Part shown: piece after piece, positions 1-42,023 of the stretch
Layout: each line of letters opens with the position of its first letter
Numbering within the stretch: position 1 is the stretch's first letter
Source: an uncultured Methanosarcinales archaeon
GTDB lineage: Archaea; Nanobdellota; Nanobdellia; Woesearchaeales; SKGA01
Length of the DNA stretch: 64,000 nucleotides
Reading direction: 5' to 3'
NCBI GenBank assembly: GCA_964428395.1
Contig: CAYRYB010000006.1
Span: forward strand, 8,453 to 72,452
Made by a program: the position numbers and the translations under genes
The notes under the pieces: generated by a model
What the model was told of the DNA's origin: nothing
What the model saw: the letters and a program-made list of their open reading frames with translations, nothing else
Database searches by the model: none

Positions 1-261
1 TCAGTCAACCTGAACACCTCTTACTTCAGATTCATGGCTGGGAACGCCTCTGGAGAACCAGGATCGTTTGACTGGGCGAACTCCTTAACATCATGGGAAA
101 ACGTTCAATCATCTTATTTGAACACGGTCATTGCCCGTCTCAACTATTCTGACAGCGCCGACGAGGCAGAGGTAGAGATCGCCATCGAAGTACCTGCTAC
201 CGAAGATTCTGGCACGAAGACGTCAACGATGACCTTCACGTGGAGGGCTGCAGAAGAATGA
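1..261 (+). CDS. 3' end of a CDS that continues upstream of the window (hypothetical secreted protein; N-x-S/T sequons)
   Basis: Frame 1 is open from base 1 to the stop at 259-261, so the gene probably starts upstream of the window. GC-rich codon usage, unlike the rest of the window. Confidence 0.3.
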   Translation, partial: SVNLNTSYFRFMAGNASGEPGSFDWANSLTSWENVQSSYLNTVIARLNYSDSADEAEVEIAIEVPATEDSGTKTSTMTFTWRAAEE

Positions 262-1439
262 TTGCCACCCTAAAAAAAGGATTGTTGTTCTTCTTCCTAT
301 TCCTCTTACTCCTTTCATCAGTGAGTGCATGGGGCATCAACCCTGCACGGCAACGAGCTACTTACACGACGGAACAACAAGAGCTCTTCGTGACCATTAA
401 GAACAACGAACACCTCGAAGGATATTTCAAGGTCGAGTTCACCGGCCCACTCGCGCCGTACGCTCACTATGCCACAAAGATAATCTACCTTGATAAGGAC
501 ATCGCCAGCGTCACGGTGCCTTTCAGCCTTAAGCTTACTGATGACCTACTACCAGGCACGAACAAGCTCGCCGTAGAGTTCCACCAACTACCAGCACAGG
601 ACCAATCAACGGTGAGCAGCCTCATCGTCCTTGTCGCTGACGTCATGGTCGACGTGCCGATGAACGGGAATCACATCACCGCGAAGCTCACCATTGGCCA
701 GGGAACAACAACGAAGCCAACCCCTATCACGATTAGCATCGCAAACAAAGGGAAAGGTGATGTCGCTGTCTGGGCTGATATCATCATCAAGGGACCAACG
801 AACAAGGAATTGTCATCGTGGAAGACACCAAAACAAGTCATCGCCTATCAAAGAACGGGAAAGATAGAAACCGCTTGGGAAGAGCTAAAAGAGCCGGGGT
901 TGTACACCATCGAAGCGACACTTCACTATGATGACAAGGTCATCGTACTCAGGGACACATTCACCATCGGTAGCAAGGAAGTCATCCCAGAGAGCATCAG
1001 CTCCTCACGATTCTCGCTCGGAAGCATCGTACCCGTCGAGATCACAGTGAGGAACAAGTGGAACAAGCCCATCAAGGACGTCTTTGCGGACGTGTACGTG
1101 TTGAGCAAGAGCGGTACTATTCTGCAATCATTCAAAACCGCCTCAGAAGACGTCGATACGTTGAGCAGGAACGTGTTAACAGGCTACTGGGACACGGAGA
1201 AACTCGTCGTCGGCTCTTATGATATGAACGTTGTCGTCAACTATGATGGAGAGCAATCTCAGAAAACCTTCTCCGTTGTAGTGAAGATGAACGAGTTCAA
1301 GATGAATGAAACGACGGGCAACGTCGTTGCGCCGAGAAACGATGTAAAGAACACCTCACTCCTTGTCATCCTCATCTTCGTGCTCATCATCACGAACATC
1401 ATCATCATCGTCCACTTCAAGAGGATAAAAAAGAAATGA
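258..1439 (+). CDS. Surface or secreted protein with an N-terminal signal peptide and a C-terminal TM anchor followed by a basic tail
   Basis: ORF 240-1439. The likely start is the internal Met giving MIATLKKGLLFFFLFLLLLSSVSAWG (signal-peptide-like). The C-terminus LLVILIFVLIITNIIIIVHFKRIKKK is a TM helix plus basic tail. About 50% GC, versus about 33% for the window. Confidence 0.5.
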   Translation: MIATLKKGLLFFFLFLLLLSSVSAWGINPARQRATYTTEQQELFVTIKNNEHLEGYFKVEFTGPLAPYAHYATKIIYLDKDIASVTVPFSLKLTDDLLPGTNKLAVEFHQLPAQDQSTVSSLIVLVADVMVDVPMNGNHITAKLTIGQGTTTKPTPITISIANKGKGDVAVWADIIIKGPTNKELSSWKTPKQVIAYQRTGKIETAWEELKEPGLYTIEATLHYDDKVIVLRDTFTIGSKEVIPESISSSRFSLGSIVPVEITVRNKWNKPIKDVFADVYVLSKSGTILQSFKTASEDVDTLSRNVLTGYWDTEKLVVGSYDMNVVVNYDGEQSQKTFSVVVKMNEFKMNETTGNVVAPRNDVKNTSLLVILIFVLIITNIIIIVHFKRIKKK

Positions 1440-1602
1440 ACGCTCACATTCTTCTGGAGGAGTTTCTCCAGAGGACCCAAATACCTCAAATCTGGAACTG
1501 AGCGTCCGTGTCCTTACCCAAAGAATGCGGGTCTCACTCTTTTTTTCTTTTTCTTTAGGCACAACTATTAAATAGAATTGTCTCCTGATCATTCTTTATG
1601 AA

Positions 1603-2184
1603 ATGTTATATTGCTGGTTTTTGGTTGTTGTTCTTGTTAGTTCCTGTGAGAATTATGCAACATGGACCAGTGGCACAATGCGAGGAGTAAATTGCACTGT
1701 TGCAATGGAATACTACGATGCACCAGGAGCATGGAACATAAGTGTTCAAGCACAAGACAGCACGCCAACAGTTGCAACAAGCATTGACGCAGCAACAATG
1801 ACATACGGAACATTATATGCCTTCCAACTTACTAAAGCAACAATTACGTTCACCTCATCAGGCGCTGGAACAAACAATGTAAATGTATCAAACGACCCTC
1901 AAGTACTCAACAATACAGGGAATGGATATTTTGGAAATATCAATGTAACAGGCTATGAACTAAGCAATGGCGTAGATACTATTGGAGCAGGAAACTTTAC
2001 TATAAATGCAACTAACGATGCAAAAGGAGTTAGTATAGGTACTAACACGCATATTCCAAGTGCAACATTAAGCAGAAACAACACACAAGACTTATACGTA
2101 TGGGTAGATGTTCCTAGTGGCATCAGCAACGGTACGTACGTAACAAACAGCAGCACACAATGGATTGTTGAAGCATACACCTAA
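1603..2184 (+). CDS. Hypothetical secreted protein rich in N-glycosylation sequons
   Basis: 193-aa ORF with a hydrophobic N-terminus and many N-x-T/S motifs. A T-rich tract follows the stop. Confidence 0.35.
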   Translation: MLYCWFLVVVLVSSCENYATWTSGTMRGVNCTVAMEYYDAPGAWNISVQAQDSTPTVATSIDAATMTYGTLYAFQLTKATITFTSSGAGTNNVNVSNDPQVLNNTGNGYFGNINVTGYELSNGVDTIGAGNFTINATNDAKGVSIGTNTHIPSATLSRNNTQDLYVWVDVPSGISNGTYVTNSSTQWIVEAYT

Positions 2185-33909: not shown

Positions 33910-33957
33910 ACACTACATATAGTGTTGTGTGAACAAATAGAACACTACCCGTAGTGT
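33910..33957. promoter_or_regulatory. Pair of NrdR-box-like 16-bp palindromes (ACACTACATATAGTGT at 33910-33925 and ACACTACCCGTAGTGT at 33942-33957), centres 32 bp apart, upstream of the adenosyltransferase gene
   Basis: Two imperfect ACACTA-N4-TAGTGT palindromes directly upstream of the 33980 GTG start. The same motif and the same spacing recur upstream of nrdJ at 37115-37162. Confidence 0.6.
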
Positions 33958-33979: not shown

Positions 33980-34561
33980 GTGATTAAGGCGTTAAAAGTG
34001 GCAATAACAACTAAAATCGGCGACAAAGGAAAAACGAACATTCTTTTTGGTCATCAAATAGACAAAACAAGTCCAATTTTAGAAGTAACGGGAACAGTAG
34101 ATGAACTTAACGCAGCTATTGGTATTGCTCGCTCATCAGTAACCGCTCCAGGTCTCAAAGAAGAATTACTCTCCTTACAACATTCCCTTTTTGTCATTGG
34201 TGCTGAAGTTGCCACATTACCAGAAGATTTTTCAAAACTCAAAAGAACTATCACAAAAGAAAATATCAATATGATTGAGAAGAGCATTACACAACTTGAG
34301 AAATATAATGACATAGATAACTGGTTTATTCCCGGAGAATCGCCAAGTTCAGCACATCTGGAATTAGCAAGAACCATTGCAAGAAGACTAGAACGACGAT
34401 TGCTTCAGATTCAACACCATAACGAGCACACAAGAATATTTGTCAACAGACTTTCAGATTATCTTTGGCTCCTCAGTCAAAAAGAAGAATATTACATACG
34501 CGGTATTGAACGAAAAAGCACAGAAGAAACAAGTATTACAGAACAACAAACAACCATTTAA
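33980..34561 (+). CDS. ATP:cob(I)alamin adenosyltransferase, PduO/MMAB type
   Basis: VAITTKIGDKGKTNILFGHQIDKTSPILEVTGTVDELNAAIG matches the PduO-type ATR N-terminal signature (TGDxGxT...GTVDELN). 193 aa. GTG start. Confidence 0.75.
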   Translation: MIKALKVAITTKIGDKGKTNILFGHQIDKTSPILEVTGTVDELNAAIGIARSSVTAPGLKEELLSLQHSLFVIGAEVATLPEDFSKLKRTITKENINMIEKSITQLEKYNDIDNWFIPGESPSSAHLELARTIARRLERRLLQIQHHNEHTRIFVNRLSDYLWLLSQKEEYYIRGIERKSTEETSITEQQTTI

Positions 34562-34707: not shown

Positions 34708-37083
34708 TTAATGCATATCGCAGCCACCAGTAAAACCACAACCAGCATCACACTCGGTGCAACCGCCAACCTTAATCATTGTACCTTTCTTACACATCGG
34801 ACAACGATTGCCAACTTCAGAACCATACACAACACCTTCTTCGTCTTCCTCATCATTTTCACCTTTTACAGAAGATGAATCTTCTACAGGTAAATCTTTC
34901 ATAGACGAAGAATCCTGCGACGTTGTCTCAGCTGGTGGAGCTGATTGCTTATTAGACGAAGCGTTAGGTGTGTGATCTGCAACGTTTTTTTCTCCGGTTG
35001 TAACGTCCGTTGATAAAATTTGTTCATCTCTGGAACCATCACGATAAATAGTTACTCCCTTGCAACCCAAATCAAAAGCGTACTCATACAATTTCATCGT
35101 TTGTTCTACTGTAAAATCCGCAGGAACATTCGCCGTCTTTGAAATTGAAGAATCAGTCCAGCGCTGAATGGTTGCCTGCAATTTTACATGATCTTCTGGA
35201 CCCATGCTCATCGCACTCACAAAAAAAGAAGGTAGTGAGCCATCTGGATTTTTCTTATATTCTTTCACCAAATCAATTTCGACCTCATGAAAACCAAGAC
35301 GACTCTGCTGATAATATTTAAACGCATAAAAAGGTTCAATACCTGTTGATGTTCCCAGCATAGAACCAACCGTACCTGTTGGTGCCTGTGTTAAAAGGGC
35401 AACATTACGAATACCTTTTTTTCGAATAGCTTCATGCACTTGAACAGGCATATGCTTCATAAAACCGCTTTGTAAAAACTTGTCTGTGACAAATTCAGGA
35501 AAGGAACCTTTCTCCTCAGCAATATCTGTTGAGGTTAAATACGCCCGAACAGCAATACGTTTGTAAAGCTTATCAACAAACTCGTTTGCCTTATCACTAC
35601 CAAACGGCAAACGCATACGCACTAAGACTTCAGCAAGGCCAAGCGTTCCGCAACCAACACGACGCTCTTTTAACTGATTCTGTTTAATCTCATCAAAAAT
35701 GTATGGTGTTAAATCAATAATATCATCTAAGAAACGAACAAGTGTTGCTGTTGCATCCTCAAGCGCATCCCAATCAAAGTCAAACAAAGGACCAATCTCA
35801 TCCTCGCCTGTCTTATATACAAAATTATTCAATGCCAAATGCGCAAGATTACAAACACCCCATGCGGGAAGACCTTGTTCTCCACAAGGATTTGTACAAA
35901 TAATATTATTATAATAATAAGAATTACTTAAGTCATTATACCTTCCTGAAAAAACAACGCCTGGCTCAGCACTTTTCCACGCAGAACTAATAAGTCTACT
36001 CCATAAATCCTTTGCGCGAACTGATTTATGCACAACTGTTTTACGCCCTTTTTTCTTCCAGCCAAGTAAGTCGCCATCCCATTCTTTATCATAAATCTCT
36101 TTTGTTTTCTTATCGGCAATGTCAGGAAATTCTAACTGCCATTCCCTGTCCTGTTTTACTGCATCCATAAACTCATTAGAAACCAGAACAGAAAGATTCG
36201 CATTATCTAAAAAACCTATTTGATGCTTCGCGTCAATAAATTCTTCAATATCAGGATGCCAATCAGCAAGCATGAGCATGAGCGCACCTCTACGCGAACC
36301 CCCCTGCTCTATAAGACCTGTTGCGTTAGAATATAAATTTCCCCACGAAACAGAACCACTCGATTTACCATTTACTCCTTTAATGTATGCATACCGAGGA
36401 CGAAGTGTACTTAAATTAATACCAACACCACCCCCACGACTAAAAATTTCTACCATTTGATACAGTGTATCTTTAATAATTGATTTTCTTGAATCACCAG
36501 GAGAAGGAATAACAAAACAATTATACAATGTTAAATTAGATGTGTAGTTTCCCGTCTCATCAACATTGGCTCCCGCCATTATCCGTCCAGCTGGCTGAAT
36601 ATAACCCTTTAAAAGCGTTTGCGTAAATTTTTCTTTATAGAAGGCAGAGTCTTTTTCCACGCTTGCTGTGGCTCGGCCAACTCGTTCATATGCATCATAA
36701 ATGCTCTCTGTAGGTTTATCACATTGTAACTTACTTACCAAAAGAGGTTCTTTACTTTCAGCATACACGCCAGTAATCATGCGAAGTTTCCACTCAGAAC
36801 CCTGACTTGCAACAATAATTCCCAAATCCTTTTTTGGATACTTAGGATGCATTTTTGAAACTACAACAACCAAATCGCCAATAGCAATATTTTCTCGCAA
36901 ATCCTTAATGGCATATCTATCCATAAAAATAATAAGACCCATTTCCTTTAGGAATGTTGAGTTGTTAAGAATATCAATTGCCTTGGCGTTTAATAAAACA
37001 CCTTCCTTTTTTAGTTGACGAACTAAGGGAGCATCAGTTGTTGCTCGCTGTAAATTTGATCCAGAATGTTCATTTGGTTTCAT
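34708..37083 (-). CDS. nrdJ: Class II (adenosylcobalamin-dependent) ribonucleotide reductase NrdJ, catalytically canonical, with a C-terminal zinc ribbon
   Basis: TNPCGEQGLPAWGVCNLAHL (N-x-C-x-E thiyl-radical motif and second redox Cys). NCFVIPSPGDS (first redox Cys). GGGVG. C-terminal CPMCKK...CTECDAGCG after an acidic, Ser-rich linker. Confidence 0.85.
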   Translation of the reverse strand: MKPNEHSGSNLQRATTDAPLVRQLKKEGVLLNAKAIDILNNSTFLKEMGLIIFMDRYAIKDLRENIAIGDLVVVVSKMHPKYPKKDLGIIVASQGSEWKLRMITGVYAESKEPLLVSKLQCDKPTESIYDAYERVGRATASVEKDSAFYKEKFTQTLLKGYIQPAGRIMAGANVDETGNYTSNLTLYNCFVIPSPGDSRKSIIKDTLYQMVEIFSRGGGVGINLSTLRPRYAYIKGVNGKSSGSVSWGNLYSNATGLIEQGGSRRGALMLMLADWHPDIEEFIDAKHQIGFLDNANLSVLVSNEFMDAVKQDREWQLEFPDIADKKTKEIYDKEWDGDLLGWKKKGRKTVVHKSVRAKDLWSRLISSAWKSAEPGVVFSGRYNDLSNSYYYNNIICTNPCGEQGLPAWGVCNLAHLALNNFVYKTGEDEIGPLFDFDWDALEDATATLVRFLDDIIDLTPYIFDEIKQNQLKERRVGCGTLGLAEVLVRMRLPFGSDKANEFVDKLYKRIAVRAYLTSTDIAEEKGSFPEFVTDKFLQSGFMKHMPVQVHEAIRKKGIRNVALLTQAPTGTVGSMLGTSTGIEPFYAFKYYQQSRLGFHEVEIDLVKEYKKNPDGSLPSFFVSAMSMGPEDHVKLQATIQRWTDSSISKTANVPADFTVEQTMKLYEYAFDLGCKGVTIYRDGSRDEQILSTDVTTGEKNVADHTPNASSNKQSAPPAETTSQDSSSMKDLPVEDSSSVKGENDEEDEEGVVYGSEVGNRCPMCKKGTMIKVGGCTECDAGCGFTGGCDMH

Positions 37084-37114: not shown

Positions 37115-37162
37115 ACACTATATGTAGTGTTTTTTCTTTTCCTCACACACTACATCTAGCTT
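37115..37162. promoter_or_regulatory. Pair of NrdR-box-like palindromes (ACACTATATGTAGTGT at 37115-37130, degenerate ACACTACATCTAGCTT at 37147-37162), centres 32 bp apart, immediately upstream of nrdJ
   Basis: Box 1 matches the bacterial NrdR-box consensus acaCwAtATaTwGtgt at 15 of 16 positions. It overlaps a second palindrome, TAGTGT-AA-ACACTA, at 37107-37124. Confidence 0.6.
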
Positions 37163-37244: not shown

Positions 37245-39035
37245 CTACTCTTTTGATTCTTGAAATGCAGAAAGTCTCGTTTGTTTTTTTATAGCAAGCG
37301 CTTGATCCTCTCGACAACCATCCCTATAAAGAGTAATACCCTTACAATGAAGCTCATGCGCCAAGAAAATAATGGACGCTACATCCTCTCTTGTTGCATC
37401 ATTAGGAAGATTAATTGTTTTAGAAATAGAATTATCTACAAACTCCTGAAAGGCCGCCATGACCGCAAGGTGCTCTTTAGCACTAATATCCATCGCTGTT
37501 CTATACACTCTTTTAAAATCGTCATCAAGCCAAGAAATGTTTTGTACTGAGTCAACAAATTGTAATTGAATCTTTGCTGTTCTGTCAATAGGTAACGCAT
37601 CAATTGCCTCTTTGAACGATTGATTAAGAATGGTAAACTGTTCTCCCTCACTTGTTTTCGTAGTAAAAGAAAATGCATACACTGGTTCAATAGATTGAGA
37701 TGCACCAGCAATAATACTTGTACTGCCTGTTGGTGCAATAGACGTTATAGAAGCATGACGCATTTGTTTTTTGAAAACAGAATCATGAAAATCGGGAAAA
37801 GGTCCTCGTTGCAAAGCCAGTGCGTGCGATACACTTTGCGATTCTTCCTGAATAATACTCATCAATTTACGAATCACCACCAACGATTTGTCAGAACCGT
37901 ACGCAATATCCATCTTAAAAAGCATATCCGCAAAACCTAAAACGCCCAACCCTATCTTTCTTGAGGCCTTCGTCTTTTTTTCTAAAACGTCATTGATATA
38001 CCTATGCATATCAATACAATTATCAAGAAAATGAACAATGGTGCGAACAAGAGAACGAAGCTTTGTCTCATCGATAACATAAGCACCATTTTTTTGCACG
38101 AGAATCTTTAATAAATTAAGATGTGCATAAGGAACGCCCTCAAAAGATTCTAATTCATACTGACCACATGAGCCTGTACAAAGCACGCGTCTATTCTTAA
38201 AAGGATATTTCTTATTCATTTCATCAATAAAAATTACTCCTGGATCGCCTGTCTGCCAAGATTGCTCAACAATTGCATCAAACAACAATTTAGCTTGAAC
38301 AGAACGCACAACTTTACCATTACGAGGATTGATAAGAGGAAATTCTTTGTTATTCTCAACCGCTTGCATGAACTCATCTGTTACGGCAACAGAAAGATTA
38401 AAATTTTGCAGGGCGCGTAAATCTTGTTTTGCCTCAATAAAAGACATTATGTCTGGATGAGAAATATGCAATACTGCCATGTTCGCACCATTACGACGAC
38501 CGCCTTGAATGATAGCGCTAAAAGAGGTATCGAAAATTTTCATTACACTCATAGGACCAAAAGCAACATTTTTCATTCCAGAAACAGAATCCTTTCGGGG
38601 ACGAATTTTTGAGAAACTAAAGCCGACACCGCCACCTTGCTGTTGAATAGTTGCGCCAAGTTTAAGCACATCAAAAATTTCCTCAACAGAATCAGGCACG
38701 TCAAGAGCATGATCTGAAAATAAGAATTGAAACGTGTTACCTGCATTCATAAGAATAGGAGATGCAGGAATAAAATCCAAATTCACTAAGTGATTAAAAA
38801 AAACTTGCTCAGTTCCCTTCACATTGCCACCGTATTTCTTGTCAGCTAATGCAATGTTTTTTGCAACACGATACAGCATGCCAACACAATCTTCAACAAT
38901 CTCTCCGTCATTATTTCGTCGTAAATAACGCATACGAAGCAAATCCTGAGCAATAGGACTGAGTGTTAAACGTCTCTTATATTCCTTATAATGAGGAATG
39001 CTTGCTTCGTAGTCCGGTGGTAAAACATCCTCCAT
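37245..39035 (-). CDS. Class II RNR-like paralogue (596 aa) lacking the canonical catalytic residues (candidate pseudo-enzyme)
   Basis: Full-length similarity to NrdJ (LRMRYL..., GGGVGFSFSKIRPR, ITLYRDG). The active-site region reads CTGSCGQYELESFEGVPYAHL instead of TNPCGEQ...CNL. The first redox Cys is absent (LFSDHALDVPDS) and there is no C-terminal Zn ribbon. Confidence 0.7.
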   Translation of the reverse strand: MEDVLPPDYEASIPHYKEYKRRLTLSPIAQDLLRMRYLRRNNDGEIVEDCVGMLYRVAKNIALADKKYGGNVKGTEQVFFNHLVNLDFIPASPILMNAGNTFQFLFSDHALDVPDSVEEIFDVLKLGATIQQQGGGVGFSFSKIRPRKDSVSGMKNVAFGPMSVMKIFDTSFSAIIQGGRRNGANMAVLHISHPDIMSFIEAKQDLRALQNFNLSVAVTDEFMQAVENNKEFPLINPRNGKVVRSVQAKLLFDAIVEQSWQTGDPGVIFIDEMNKKYPFKNRRVLCTGSCGQYELESFEGVPYAHLNLLKILVQKNGAYVIDETKLRSLVRTIVHFLDNCIDMHRYINDVLEKKTKASRKIGLGVLGFADMLFKMDIAYGSDKSLVVIRKLMSIIQEESQSVSHALALQRGPFPDFHDSVFKKQMRHASITSIAPTGSTSIIAGASQSIEPVYAFSFTTKTSEGEQFTILNQSFKEAIDALPIDRTAKIQLQFVDSVQNISWLDDDFKRVYRTAMDISAKEHLAVMAAFQEFVDNSISKTINLPNDATREDVASIIFLAHELHCKGITLYRDGCREDQALAIKKQTRLSAFQESKE

Positions 39036-39256: not shown

Positions 39257-39676
39257 TCACTCGCCAATAATCTTAATGATAACGCGTTTACTGCGTCTGC
39301 CATCAAACTCAGCATAAAATATCTGCTCCCAAGGACCCAAATCTAATTTTCCTTTTGTTATTGCCATCGTTACCTGGTGGCCTAATAATTGGCGCTTTAA
39401 GTGAGCATCAGCATTGTCCTCGCCAGTTAAATGATGTTTATAATCAGATTTTTTTGGAGCAAGAGTTTCAAGTAAGTCAGAAAAATCCTGCAATAATCCA
39501 CTTTCTGCATCATTAACAAATACCGCAGCAGTAATATGCATTGGATTAATAAGAACTAGACCTTCTTTTATTGCAGATTCTTGCACAGCAGATTCAACAT
39601 CGGAAGTAATATTTACAAAATCATAACGATCTTTTGTATGCATAACAAGATAGTGTGTGTAAGATTTCACGTTCAA
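39257..39676 (-). CDS. YjbQ/UPF0047 family protein
   Basis: 139 aa. [18 protein letters not shown]...[15 protein letters not shown] matches the YjbQ family. Confidence 0.65.
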
Positions 39677-39715: not shown

Positions 39716-40456
39716 TTAATCATTATCTACTCGTGGTGCAAGAACAAAAGAAAGCTCTAACTTGTTTTGCACGAGATACTCTAAGCGAAGAGGATAATCA
39801 CGACTAAATTTTATTTGCACAACATCAGCAAGCTTTGCACCTTGCATCATCTTTTTTAGGTACTCGATAGAATATTTTGCTTTAATACCGTCTTCTTGAC
39901 AAACAATTTTTGTGCTTTTATCTGCAGGAATGTCAACGGCTGCCTTCGTTAAATCCCCTTTGCTGCTAATAGAAAACGTATCGCTGGATACTGCAAAGTT
40001 TACACTCTCGCCAACAACATCAACATCATCAATAGCATCAATTAACAAACTAGATTGCGCAACAATAGTTGCTGCAAAGGAAAGGTCTGGAACGCGTTGC
40101 TCTTTATCCTCAATGTCAATAAGTGGCAAATGAAATGTTCTTTTGCTTGTCGATTGCAATGTTATCTTAAGTTTATTTTCTTCAAGCTCCAATGTTAATA
40201 CATCGTTGCTTTTCACGCGACGAAGAACTTGCTTTAGATTATTCAAATTGATGGTGATGTTTGTTGGTCCATCAAGCTCATACGTCACAAACGAAGAAGA
40301 TAATAATTTGAAAATGACTAGCGCAACATTTGCTGGATCCATCGCTACAAGCTCAACAGCTTCTGAAGTAATCTTTAATGTAGCCTCCGTAACAATTTCA
40401 GAAATAATTGCGACACTTTCCTTAAGATATTTTGGCTCTGCCAGTGTTAATTTCAT
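39716..40456 (-). CDS. pcn: DNA polymerase sliding clamp PCNA
   Basis: 246 aa. The N-terminal MKLTL...AIISEIV...ATLKITSEAVEL...MDPANVALV pattern and the C-terminal LAPRV box are typical of archaeal PCNA. Confidence 0.8.
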   Translation of the reverse strand: MKLTLAEPKYLKESVAIISEIVTEATLKITSEAVELVAMDPANVALVIFKLLSSSFVTYELDGPTNITINLNNLKQVLRRVKSNDVLTLELEENKLKITLQSTSKRTFHLPLIDIEDKEQRVPDLSFAATIVAQSSLLIDAIDDVDVVGESVNFAVSSDTFSISSKGDLTKAAVDIPADKSTKIVCQEDGIKAKYSIEYLKKMMQGAKLADVVQIKFSRDYPLRLEYLVQNKLELSFVLAPRVDND

Positions 40457-41939: not shown

Positions 41940-42023
41940 TGCGGGGAAAGGGATTCGAACCCATGTAGGCACTAAGCCAACAGATTTTGAGTCTGCCCCG
42001 TTTGTCCACTCCGGCATCCCCGC
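41940..42023 (-). tRNA. tRNA-Leu (anticodon CAA), class II long variable arm
   Basis: Minus strand GCGGGGA-TG-CCGGAGTGGACAAACGG-GGCAGACTCAAAATCTGTT-GGCTTAGTGCCTAC-ATGGGTTCGAATCCCTT-TCCCCGC-A. Canonical stems throughout. Anticodon loop CT-CAA-AA. Confidence 0.8.

What the first reader, a model, noticed from the sequence alone, without database searches (positions are those of the whole stretch)
37245..39035. Tandem class II RNR paralogue missing all catalytic residues except the radical-cysteine position (candidate RNR pseudo-enzyme)
The downstream NrdJ (34708-37083) has the canonical active site: NCF (first redox Cys), TNPCGEQ (Asn/thiyl-Cys/Glu) and GVCNL (second redox Cys). The 596-aa paralogue directly upstream is full-length and clearly RNR-fold (GGGVGFSFSKIRPR, ITLYRDG). 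At the aligned positions, though, it reads LFSDHAL / CTGSCGQ / GVPYAHL. Asn is replaced by Gly and Glu by Gln, both redox cysteines are lost, and the C-terminal Zn-ribbon/reductant tail is absent. It therefore cannot perform ribonucleotide reduction. Its retention next to the functional enzyme suggests a different role, such as regulation, a B12 or nucleotide-binding scaffold, or heterodimer formation.
Basis: seen in the sequence. Interest (0 to 1): 0.72.

Follow-up and report, generated by a model that had tools for sequence, protein, structure and literature searches.

The report
Conserved RNR paralogue with rebuilt pocket
Next to a normal B12-dependent ribonucleotide reductase, this DPANN archaeon encodes a second, well-conserved copy that keeps only the radical-carrying cysteine and has replaced the rest of the reducing active site with a different invariant set of residues, so it is a selected protein with a new, still unknown job and not a dead gene.

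Summary
ORF 37245-39035(-) is a full-length class II RNR (NrdJ) homologue. Against T. maritima NrdJ it reads C134->D, N320->G, C322->C, E324->Q, C333->V, and it lacks the Cys/Zn-ribbon tail. It is neither a decaying gene nor a recent tandem duplicate. It belongs to a monophyletic DPANN family of at least 55 sequences (down to 49% identity). All of them show D/G(S)/C/Q/V(I) within new invariant motifs (LFSDHAL, CTG[SA]CGQY, EGVPYAH). Its dN equals that of the neighbouring canonical NrdJ. Conserved residue switches are concentrated in the substrate pocket (p=6e-11), while the phosphate loop, loop 2 and the top face are retained. The tail has become an invariant Q-T-R/K-L-x-A-F motif, which is PIP-box-like. 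The paralogue-NrdJ-adenosyltransferase synteny persists across two NrdJ subtypes, and one lineage fuses the adenosyltransferase to the paralogue. Other archaeal NrdJ-like families that lost the redox cysteines independently sit in operons with a non-homologous adenosyltransferase. Best reading (0.4): an AdoCbl/thiyl-radical protein doing non-reductive nucleotide chemistry. Main rival (0.3): a non-catalytic partner of NrdJ. I found no paper describing it, and databases annotate it as a genuine RNR.

The parts
37245..39035 (-). NrdJ-derived paralogue, 596 aa (RNR all-alpha domain + 10-stranded barrel), member of the D/G/C/Q/V clade
38703..38723 (-). Residues 105-111, LFSDHAL: the strand that carries the first redox Cys in canonical enzymes (SACF). 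Asp108 replaces the Cys. S107 and D108 are invariant in the clade.
38157..38180 (-). Residues 286-293, CTGSCGQY: finger loop. Thiyl Cys290 kept (invariant); Asn->Gly288, Pro->Ser289, Glu->Gln292 (invariant); Tyr293 clade-specific.
38121..38141 (-). Residues 299-305, EGVPYAH: the strand that carries the second redox Cys (ESCNLGS). Cys->Val301, Asn->Pro302, Leu->Tyr303, Ser->His305, all conserved in the clade.
38751..38768 (-). Residues 90-95, PASPIL: substrate-binding loop (canonical PNSPTL). The Ser is kept; Asn->Ala91 and Thr->Ile94 are conserved switches.
37716..37733 (-). Residues 435-440, PTGSTS: phosphate-binding loop, retained as in canonical NrdJ (P435, T436, G437, S440 invariant).
37263..37283 (-). 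Residues 585-591, QTRLSAF: invariant Q/L/F docking motif (PIP-box-like, Q-x-x-L-x-x-F) in a disordered C-terminal tail.
   Evidence: definition from PMC6881253
34708..37083 (-). Canonical class II RNR (NrdJ, PRK08115-like), C/N/C/E/C active site and C-terminal Zn-ribbon/Cys tail; conserved downstream neighbour.
33980..34561 (+). PduO-type ATP:cob(I)alamin adenosyltransferase (PF01923), conserved member of the neighbourhood; fused to the paralogue in P0045/L005.
37115..37162 (.). Pair of NrdR boxes (37115-37130, 1 mismatch; 37147-37162, 4 mismatches but all six key positions), 32-bp register, in the spacer between the paralogue and NrdJ. They belong to the NrdJ promoter, not to the paralogue.
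   Evidence: architecture from PMC13584703
33910..33925 (.). NrdR box (1 mismatch) upstream of the adenosyltransferase gene.

Best explanation
The ORF encodes a neo-functionalised descendant of a class II ribonucleotide reductase. SHOWN: it keeps the RNR fold, the dimer/effector helices, loop 2, the diphosphate-binding elements, the top-face CKG-T-YR strand and the thiyl-radical cysteine. The whole reducing face of the pocket has been exchanged for a different invariant set (Asp108, His109, Gly288, Gln292, Tyr293, Val301, Pro302, Tyr303, His305). The redox tail has been exchanged for a Q-T-R/K-L-x-A-F docking motif. The family is monophyletic, under purifying selection equal to that of the true enzyme, and genomically tied to NrdJ and to cob(I)alamin adenosyltransferase. 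INFERRED: it still binds a nucleoside di/triphosphate and adenosylcobalamin, still generates the Cys290 thiyl radical, and uses it for a redox-neutral (non-reductive) reaction on the sugar that needs no cysteine pair and no reductant tail. The simplest chemistry is diol-dehydratase-like: 3'-H abstraction, acid-assisted loss of the 2'-OH (Asp108 in place of the bottom-face Cys), and return of the hydrogen from Cys290 (net 1,2-shift) to give a 2'-deoxy-3'-ketonucleotide. From my own knowledge of the RNR literature, this is the documented side reaction of RNRs with 2'-chloro substrates and of bottom-face Cys mutants (Stubbe and co-workers). The tail probably docks the protein to a partner. PCNA is the obvious candidate in an archaeon.
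For: The altered signature D/G(S)/C/Q/V(I) is present in 55/55 clade members down to 49% identity, against C/N/C/E/C in 65/65 canonical hits. C290, G291 and Q292 are invariant. Of 243 columns >=90% conserved in canonical relatives, 135 are kept and 20 switched to another conserved residue; 14 of those 20 fall in 28 pocket columns (Fisher p=5.6e-11). dN equals that of canonical NrdJ over the same genome pairs (0.26 vs 0.25; 0.25 vs 0.23). The clade is monophyletic, with 100% NJ bootstrap and no long branches. The model is confident and matches T. maritima NrdJ at TM 0.86. The adenosyltransferase is fused N-terminally to the paralogue, not to NrdJ, in P0045, seen in two samples. Independent NrdJ-like families that lost both redox Cys but kept the thiyl Cys (the only Cys in P0269 and P0272) are immediately followed by a non-homologous CobA-type adenosyltransferase. 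No NrdR boxes lie upstream of stand-alone paralogue genes, whereas NrdJ and ATR have them, which suggests it is not simply another dNTP-producing RNR.
Against: No activity, cofactor-binding or expression data exist. AdoCbl-contact residues could not be mapped because no coordinates or residue lists were available. The class II-diagnostic Pro next to the thiyl Cys is replaced (S/A/C). Glu->Gln removes the base that promotes 2'-OH loss in canonical RNRs, so the proposed dehydration needs another base (His305/Tyr303), which is unverified. The product would be unstable, and no conserved downstream enzyme (for example a ketoreductase) is in the neighbourhood. The ATR linkage in most loci is confounded by the adjacent canonical NrdJ, which also needs AdoCbl. 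Tight synteny with NrdJ fits a partner role equally well.
Confidence: 0.4

Rival explanations
1. Non-catalytic alpha-prime subunit or adaptor: a nucleotide-binding but chemically inert NrdJ paralogue that pairs with the neighbouring NrdJ, by heterodimerisation or tail docking, to regulate it or tether it, for example to PCNA at the replication fork. Analogues are yeast Rnr4, the trypanosome AdoMetDC prozyme and the PCNA-coupled RNR regulator Spd1.
For: Four of five catalytic residues and the reductant tail are lost. The paralogue->NrdJ gene order is conserved in the window, L001-L004, L007-L009 and L014. In L005 the order is reversed (NrdJ then the ATR::paralogue fusion, 10-bp gap). The C-terminal Q-x-x-L-x-x-F motif is invariant in a disordered tail. 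Dimer/effector helices are conserved. Single-chain double-NrdJ proteins (tail-less copy first, tailed copy second) show that asymmetric alpha-alpha arrangements exist. PCNA-RNR regulatory coupling has a eukaryotic precedent (PMC10939359).
Against: The paralogue is only 24-31% identical to its partners and did not arise from them. The partners belong to two unrelated NrdJ subtypes (790-aa Zn-ribbon type; 1146-aa PF08471 type), which makes a co-evolved dimer interface unlikely. The P0049 subclade has no NrdJ within 8 kb. This reading does not explain the invariance of the thiyl Cys and of the rebuilt pocket, the ATR fusion, or the recurrent thiyl-only/ATR pattern elsewhere. The motif lacks the second aromatic of a canonical PIP box.
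Confidence: 0.3
2. A genuine ribonucleotide reductase that uses a non-cysteine reductant (a small molecule such as formate, as in class III enzymes, or a partner protein) instead of the active-site disulfide.
For: The pattern, with Glu replaced by an amide and no Asn or second Cys, resembles what I recall of the formate-dependent class III active site (own knowledge). The thiyl Cys and nucleotide-binding elements are retained. ATP-cone-bearing, Cys-pair-less NrdJ-like proteins with an operonic ATR and no canonical NrdJ nearby look like sole RNRs.
Against: Unlike class III enzymes, no bottom-face Cys remains to deliver the hydrogen atom. There are no NrdR boxes upstream of the paralogue in genomes that put them before NrdJ and ATR. 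A canonical NrdJ is almost always present alongside. The protein has no ATP-cone.
Confidence: 0.12
3. Adenosylcobalamin escort or store: the paralogue receives AdoCbl from the adenosyltransferase and holds it or hands it to NrdJ, analogous to the NifEN scaffold for NifDK or ATR-to-mutase cofactor delivery. This would be useful to a B12-scavenging symbiont.
For: ATR::paralogue fusion. Conserved ATR and NrdJ neighbourhood. Retained top face and nucleotide-phosphate site. In T. maritima NrdJ the phosphate site locks the cofactor in place (Larsson et al. 2010, from my own knowledge).
Against: A carrier has no need for an invariant thiyl Cys or for an invariant rebuilt ribose-face pocket far from the cofactor. 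To my knowledge, class II RNRs exchange AdoCbl freely and no chaperone is known for them. The stand-alone P0049 subclade lacks both partners nearby.
Confidence: 0.1
4. Decaying pseudogene or relaxed duplicate with no function.
For: Loss of catalytic residues.
Against: The ORF is intact in at least 55 lineages, the replacement residues are invariant, pN is far below pS with dN equal to the functional neighbour, and the fold model is confident.
Confidence: 0.01

Closest known systems
Dimeric class II (AdoCbl-dependent) ribonucleotide reductase NrdJ, T. maritima type (PDB 1XJE/3O0O; NCBIfam TIGR02504, PRK08665)
   Same: Same fold (TM 0.86). About 45% identity to canonical relatives. N-terminal all-alpha domain, GGGVG, loop 2, APTGS phosphate loop, SKTIN, CKG-T-YR strand and thiyl Cys all retained. 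Scores above the TIGR02504 cut-off (543 vs 400), so it is annotated as NrdJ in public records.
   Different: N-x-C-x-E is replaced by G-x-C-x-Q. Both redox Cys are replaced (Asp, Val). The class II-diagnostic Pro is lost. There is no Cys tail, TSCPD domain, Zn-ribbon or ATP-cone. A docking motif has been gained. NrdR boxes are absent.
Catalytically inactive RNR subunits: yeast Rnr4 (beta-prime) and betaherpesvirus R1 homologues (M45/UL45) (own knowledge)
   Same: RNR-fold proteins that lost catalytic residues yet are retained under selection for another role (heterodimer stabiliser; cell-death inhibitor).
   Different: Those are class I components in eukaryotes and viruses. Here it is a class II alpha in archaea. 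The radical Cys is kept, the pocket is rebuilt with invariant polar residues, and the gene is linked to AdoCbl synthesis.
AdoCbl-dependent diol/glycerol dehydratases (eliminases) (own knowledge)
   Same: The proposed chemistry is radical-initiated loss of water from a vicinal diol with a 1,2-hydrogen shift. It is redox-neutral, AdoCbl-dependent, and served by a dedicated adenosyltransferase.
   Different: Unrelated fold, no thiyl relay, and different substrates. The resemblance is mechanistic only and is inferred.
Archaeal PIP-box PCNA clients (Fen1, RFC-L, PolB, etc.)
   Same: The short motif Q-x-x-L-x-x-F sits at or near the extreme C-terminus in a disordered tail with a one-turn helix, as described for archaeal PIP motifs (PMC6881253).
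   Different: The second aromatic (position 8) is missing, binding is untested, and to my knowledge no RNR-family protein is known as an archaeal PCNA client.
NCBIfam PRK06948 'ribonucleotide reductase-like protein'
   Same: A named family of RNR-like proteins distinct from bona fide RNRs.
   Different: The paralogue scores 211 bits against a cut-off of 906, so it is not a member.

Membership tests
Class II ribonucleotide reductase (NrdJ), as a catalytic family | RNR ten-stranded alpha/beta barrel with finger loop, plus the N-terminal all-alpha domain | tested here: met
   Pfam PF02867 E 2e-111 and PF00317 E 3e-17; AF2 model TM 0.86 to 1XJE/3O0O
Class II ribonucleotide reductase (NrdJ), as a catalytic family | Finger-loop N-P-C-x-E motif (Asn, thiyl Cys, Glu); stated to be shared by classes O, I and II (PMC9669993) | tested here: not met
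   Reads G-S-C-G-Q. Only the Cys is retained, in 55/55 clade members
Class II ribonucleotide reductase (NrdJ), as a catalytic family | Active-site redox cysteine pair (Tm C134/C333; E. coli C225/C462) | tested here: not met
   Asp108 and Val301 at these columns; D and V/I throughout the clade apart from P0054, which keeps the second Cys (D/G/C/Q/C)
Class II ribonucleotide reductase (NrdJ), as a catalytic family | C-terminal cysteine-containing tail/domain that re-reduces the active site | tested here: not met
   The tail is Cys-free after residue 574 and ends in QTRLSAFQESKE
Class II ribonucleotide reductase (NrdJ), as a catalytic family | Adenosylcobalamin binding and Co-C homolysis coupled to the thiyl Cys | not testable with these tools
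   Only indirect evidence: thiyl Cys and top-face strand conserved; ATR neighbour and fusion
Class II ribonucleotide reductase (NrdJ), as a catalytic family | Curated HMM score above cut-off (TIGR02504 NrdJ_Z) | tested here: met
   543 bits against a cut-off of 400. This explains the public annotation as AdoCbl-dependent RNR, although the catalytic criteria fail
Pseudoenzyme partner of an active paralogue (prozyme / Rnr4 type) | Loss of residues essential for the ancestral reaction, with retention under purifying selection | tested here: met
Pseudoenzyme partner of an active paralogue (prozyme / Rnr4 type) | Physical complex with the active paralogue | not testable with these tools
   Synteny only. 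The partner subtype varies, and one subclade stands alone
PIP-box PCNA-interacting proteins | Q-x-x-[LIMV]-x-x-[FYW]-[FYW] motif | tested here: inconclusive
   Q585, L588 and F591 are invariant in 46/46. Position 8 is E/D/N or absent. Definition from PMC6881253
PIP-box PCNA-interacting proteins | Location at the extreme C-terminus in a disordered region (archaeal pattern) | tested here: met
   Residues 573-596 have pLDDT <50 with a short helix at 588-591. The motif is 0-6 residues from the end in most members
PIP-box PCNA-interacting proteins | Binding to PCNA | not testable with these tools
NrdR regulon | Two 16-bp NrdR boxes with a 15-16 bp linker in the promoter region | tested here: not met
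   No box upstream of the paralogue in the window, L001, L007, L009, L011 or L014. Boxes precede NrdJ and ATR instead. Only the L005 operon places the fusion gene behind boxes
NCBIfam PRK06948 ribonucleotide reductase-like protein | HMM score above the curated cut-off | tested here: not met
   211 bits against a cut-off of 906

The most novel reading that the evidence does not exclude
DPANN archaea harbour a radiation of adenosylcobalamin-dependent, thiyl-radical NrdJ descendants that work without the universal redox-cysteine pair. The D/G/C/Q/V clade found here would be a new AdoCbl radical enzyme with non-reductive nucleotide chemistry (for example a nucleotide 2'-dehydratase), possibly recruited to PCNA. 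The ATP-cone-bearing P0262-type proteins would be ribonucleotide reductases using a reductant other than cysteines. Either would break the N-x-C-x-E plus Cys-pair rule regarded as universal for class I/II RNRs.
Probability: 0.35. Interest if true: 0.9.

Novelty: new variant of a known kind. Interest (0 to 1): 0.74.

Why it matters
RNR chemistry is regarded as one of the most invariant in biology. Surveys state that all class I/II enzymes share N-x-C-x-E plus a redox cysteine pair, and curation pipelines discard anything else as non-functional bycatch. Here a family lacking those residues is as strongly conserved as the real enzyme. It keeps exactly the radical cysteine, is wired to B12 adenosylation, and has relatives that lost the cysteines independently. 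If it is catalytically active, it defines new AdoCbl radical chemistry on nucleotides or a thiol-independent route to deoxyribonucleotides. If it is inactive, it is the first prokaryotic class II alpha-prime subunit, possibly linking dNTP supply to the sliding clamp. In practical terms, these genes pass the NrdJ HMM cut-off and are annotated as functional RNRs, which distorts metabolic reconstructions of DPANN symbionts.

Tried and rejected
(1) Decaying pseudogene: rejected. (2) Recent tandem duplication: rejected. The pair is 30% identical, and the paralogue nests in another NrdJ subgroup. (3) Catalytic residues displaced elsewhere in the protein: not found. Cys occur only at positions 50, 286, 290, 340, 564 and 574, and the alignments to 1XJE and to 65 canonical sequences agree. 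(4) P0121 and P0122, the top hits of the exhaustive profile search, turned out to be single-chain double canonical NrdJs and not clade members. Most representatives 'lacking' the N-x-C-x-E motif have profile matches that break at the finger loop, consistent with intein insertions. (5) dN/dS ratios are unreliable because synonymous sites are saturated (pS 0.62-0.80), so I compared dN with the canonical neighbour instead. (6) The genome-contig scan with the single protein returned only 4 loci, so context came mainly from the look-up of encoding contigs. (8) A search for a positive-control PIP box in other window ORFs found none. (9) Rfam found only one tRNA and no riboswitch; the sigma-70 and terminator scans were uninformative. 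(10) Six literature searches (pseudoenzyme, NrdJ+Woesearchaeota, paralogue, PIP/archaea, catalytic residues/non-functional, DPANN/cobalamin) found no description of this family. (11) AdoCbl-contact residues could not be retrieved from the accessible papers.
Full report
1. THE OBSERVATION

Both contain the RNR all-alpha and barrel domains (Pfam PF00317 and PF02867, E 2e-111 and 2e-114 for the barrel). They are 30% identical to each other.

phmmer against the PDB aligns the 596-aa protein to T. maritima NrdJ (1XJE, E 1e-91). The catalytic positions read as follows:
- Tm C134 -> D108
- N320 -> G288
- C322 -> C290 (retained)
- E324 -> Q292
- C333 -> V301

The downstream protein has C/N/C/E/C and a Cys-rich Zn-ribbon tail. 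A confident AlphaFold2 model (pLDDT 86.9, pTM 0.89) superposes on T. maritima NrdJ with TM 0.86.

2. IT IS A FAMILY, NOT DECAY

A search of 5.8 billion proteins returned a discrete group, P0001-P0055. Full-length members are about 556-625 aa (one is a 774-aa ATR fusion, and several are fragments), 49-100% identical, from Woesearchaeota/Nanoarchaeota/Nanobdellota MAGs. Below that group there is a step down to canonical NrdJs at about 45% identity.

All 55 members read D / G(S) / C / Q / V(I) at the five catalytic columns, except one intermediate, P0054 (D/G/C/Q/C). All 65 canonical hits read C/N/C/E/C. The substitutions sit inside new, conserved motifs: LFSDHAL, CTG[SA]CGQY and EGVPYAH.

An exhaustive HMMER profile search of 1.84 billion cluster representatives found only a handful of 50%-identity representatives for the clade. 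Scores then drop from 957 to 687 bits for canonical enzymes.

In an NJ tree the clade is monophyletic (100% bootstrap). It nests among PRK08665-type NrdJs, far from its own neighbour, and has no inflated branch lengths.

Non-synonymous divergence between the window and orthologous loci equals that of the adjacent canonical NrdJ: dN 0.26 vs 0.25 (L001), 0.25 vs 0.23 (L007), 0.35 vs 0.28 (L003). Synonymous sites are saturated. The pseudogene and relaxed-duplicate readings are therefore refuted. 'Tandem paralogue' is misleading, because the two genes are not recent duplicates.

3. WHAT CHANGED AND WHAT DID NOT

Of 243 alignment columns that are >=90% conserved in the canonical relatives:
- 135 are kept and conserved in the clade. 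These include GGGVG, loop 2 (QGGRRxGANM), the phosphate loop PTGS, SKTIN and the top-face CKG-T-YR strand.
- 20 have switched to a different residue that is itself >=90% conserved: N->A91, T->I94, S->F106, A->S107, C->D108, F->H109, S->G153, S->F159, F->V164, T->F172, I->M273, I->V284, N->G288, E->Q292, S->G300, C->V301, N->P302, L->Y303, S->H305, G->S448.

Fourteen of those 20 lie in the 28 conserved columns of four segments: the substrate loop, the first-Cys strand, the finger loop and the second-Cys strand. Only 6 lie in the other 215 columns (Fisher p=5.6e-11).

This is the signature of a pocket rebuilt for a different ligand or reaction, in a protein whose nucleotide-phosphate binding, effector/dimer elements and radical-delivery face are preserved.

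4. THE TAIL

The Cys tail is gone, but the C-terminus is not free to vary. Q585, L588 and F591 are invariant in 46/46 aligned members, T586 is present in 43/46, and position 587 is always R or K. Flanking positions vary, and in the P0049 subclade the protein ends exactly at the Phe. The model predicts a disordered tail with a one-turn helix over LSAF.

The canonical PIP box is Q-x-x-psi-x-x-theta-theta, and archaeal PIP motifs are found at the very C-terminus (PMC6881253). The motif here matches positions 1, 4 and 7 and lacks the second aromatic. PCNA binding is therefore a hypothesis, not a result. A PCNA gene lies nearby (39716-40456), but that synteny is not universal.

5. GENOMIC CONTEXT

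- The window, L001-L004, L007, L009 and L014 all show paralogue -> 770-790-aa Zn-ribbon NrdJ -> PduO-type adenosyltransferase (ATR).
- In L008 the partner is an unrelated 1146-aa NrdJ subtype, again with ATR nearby.
- In L005 the order is nrdR, long nrdJ, then, 10 bp later, an ATR::paralogue fusion gene (P0045, seen in two samples).
- The deep P0049 subclade stands alone, with no NrdJ or ATR within 8 kb.

NrdR-box pairs with the canonical 32-bp register (architecture from PMC13584703) lie between the paralogue and NrdJ, and upstream of ATR. They are never directly upstream of a stand-alone paralogue.

6. A BROADER PATTERN

Among the nearest representatives are other non-canonical NrdJ-like proteins.

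The P0262 family (66-80% identical, with an ATP-cone) reads S / D / C / E / T(A,V). Its members contain 1-3 cysteines in total. In P0269 and P0272 the thiyl Cys is the only cysteine in the protein.

P0262 and the separate P0267 lineage are each followed immediately by a CobA/BtuR-type adenosyltransferase, which is non-homologous to PduO. The gap is 6 bp in one case and an 8-bp overlap in the other. No canonical NrdJ lies within 8 kb, and the contigs are archaeal.

Further variants (P0278/P0280, P0284, P0293, P0296) have lost one or both redox Cys. So losing the cysteine pair while keeping the radical Cys and staying tied to AdoCbl synthesis has happened repeatedly. That is hard to reconcile with these proteins being inert.

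7. MECHANISM

Shown:
- The protein cannot form the active-site disulfide or be re-reduced by a tail.
- It is selected.
- It retains the nucleotide-phosphate and effector elements, the top face and the thiyl Cys.
- It is linked to ATR.

Inferred (confidence 0.4): it remains an AdoCbl/thiyl-radical protein performing a redox-neutral transformation of a nucleotide sugar. The simplest option is diol-dehydratase-like 2'-dehydration with a 1,2-hydrogen shift to a 3'-keto-2'-deoxynucleotide. From my own knowledge, this chemistry is already documented as a side reaction of RNRs with 2'-halo substrates and of bottom-face Cys mutants. Asp108 would take the acid role, and His305/Tyr303 would be candidate bases now that Glu is Gln.

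Rivals:
- A non-catalytic alpha-prime adaptor or regulator of NrdJ, perhaps tethering it to PCNA (0.3). The synteny and the tail support it. The variable partner subtype, the stand-alone subclade, the invariant Cys and pocket, and the ATR fusion weaken it.
- A true RNR with a non-cysteine reductant (0.12). The absence of any bottom-face Cys and of NrdR boxes weakens it.
- An AdoCbl escort between ATR and NrdJ (0.1).
- A pseudogene (0.01).

8. COMPARISON WITH WHAT IS KNOWN, AND NOVELTY

The protein passes the TIGR02504 NrdJ cut-off (543 vs 400) and is named 'adenosylcobalamin-dependent ribonucleoside-diphosphate reductase' in public records. It nevertheless fails three tested defining catalytic features of the family: N-x-C-x-E, the redox pair and the reductant tail. 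It is not a member of the PRK06948 'RNR-like' family (211 vs 906 bits).

RNR surveys state that classes O, I and II all share N-x-C-x-E (PMC9669993). Residue-based curation tools discard non-NCEC sequences as bycatch (PASV preprint). Six literature searches found no description of this clade.

Inactive RNR subunits are known (yeast Rnr4, herpesvirus R1 homologues; own knowledge). I know of no class II alpha with a conserved rebuilt pocket, a retained thiyl Cys, ATR linkage and a docking tail. I rate it a new variant of a known kind, with interest 0.74. The exact function is unresolved, but the finding is real, conserved and directly testable.

Noticed in passing
window 37115-37130 and 37147-37162; window 33910-33925; L001 9960-10007; L009 9668-9715; L007 2992-3007 and 6437-6484; L014 9852-9899; L005 4027-4074: Bacterial-type NrdR boxes (ACACwAtATaTwGTGT), in pairs with an exact 32-bp register, precede the canonical nrdJ and the cob(I)alamin adenosyltransferase gene in these DPANN archaea. 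The B12-adenosylation gene therefore appears to belong to the NrdR regulon, while the paralogue does not.
   Followed up: partly
L015 6742-9392 (P0262) and L016 7792-10531 (P0267); proteins P0269-P0275, P0278, P0280, P0284, P0293, P0296: Other archaeal NrdJ-like families with an ATP-cone have lost one or both redox cysteines and the Asn but keep the thiyl Cys and Glu. P0269 and P0272 contain a single cysteine. P0262 and P0267 are operonic with a CobA/BtuR-type adenosyltransferase, with no canonical NrdJ within 8 kb. These are possible thiol-independent RNRs.
   Followed up: partly
proteins P0121 (1600 aa) and P0122 (1351 aa): These are single polypeptides containing two complete canonical NrdJ modules, both with NPCGE. 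The first module is tail-less and the second carries TSCPD and a Zn-ribbon. That is the same order as the paralogue/NrdJ gene pair, and it suggests covalently linked asymmetric alpha-alpha dimers.
   Followed up: partly
L005 4088-10325 (P0045): An operon of nrdR, a 1147-aa NrdJ (PF08471 + TSCPD) and an ATR::paralogue fusion with a 10-bp gap, followed 2 bp later by an MBL-fold protein. No separate ATR gene lies in the 13.7-kb locus.
   Followed up: partly
clade members P0020, P0023, P0024, P0029, P0031 (C-termini): In one subclade the Q-T-K-L-x-A-F motif is followed by a 25-35-residue acidic/hydrophobic extension (...EDDDVSESVQEVVEDLVEELI...). Its meaning is unknown.
   Followed up: no
L013 1-60: The contig carrying the intermediate form P0054 (D/G/C/Q/C) begins with Illumina adapter sequence (CAAGCAGAAGACGGCATACGAGAT...GTGACTGGAGTTCAGACGTGTGCTCTTCCGAT). 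Its 5' end, and the N-terminus of P0054, are therefore unreliable.
   Followed up: no
window 1-2000: GC content is 0.47 against about 0.35 for the rest of the window. Rfam found no rRNA there, and the only RNA hit in the window is a tRNA at 41940-42023(-).
   Followed up: no
window 39257-39676(-) and L014 5303-5716: A UPF0047/YjbQ-family gene lies just upstream of the paralogue in the window and 2.3 kb upstream in L014. It is not conserved in the other loci.
   Followed up: no
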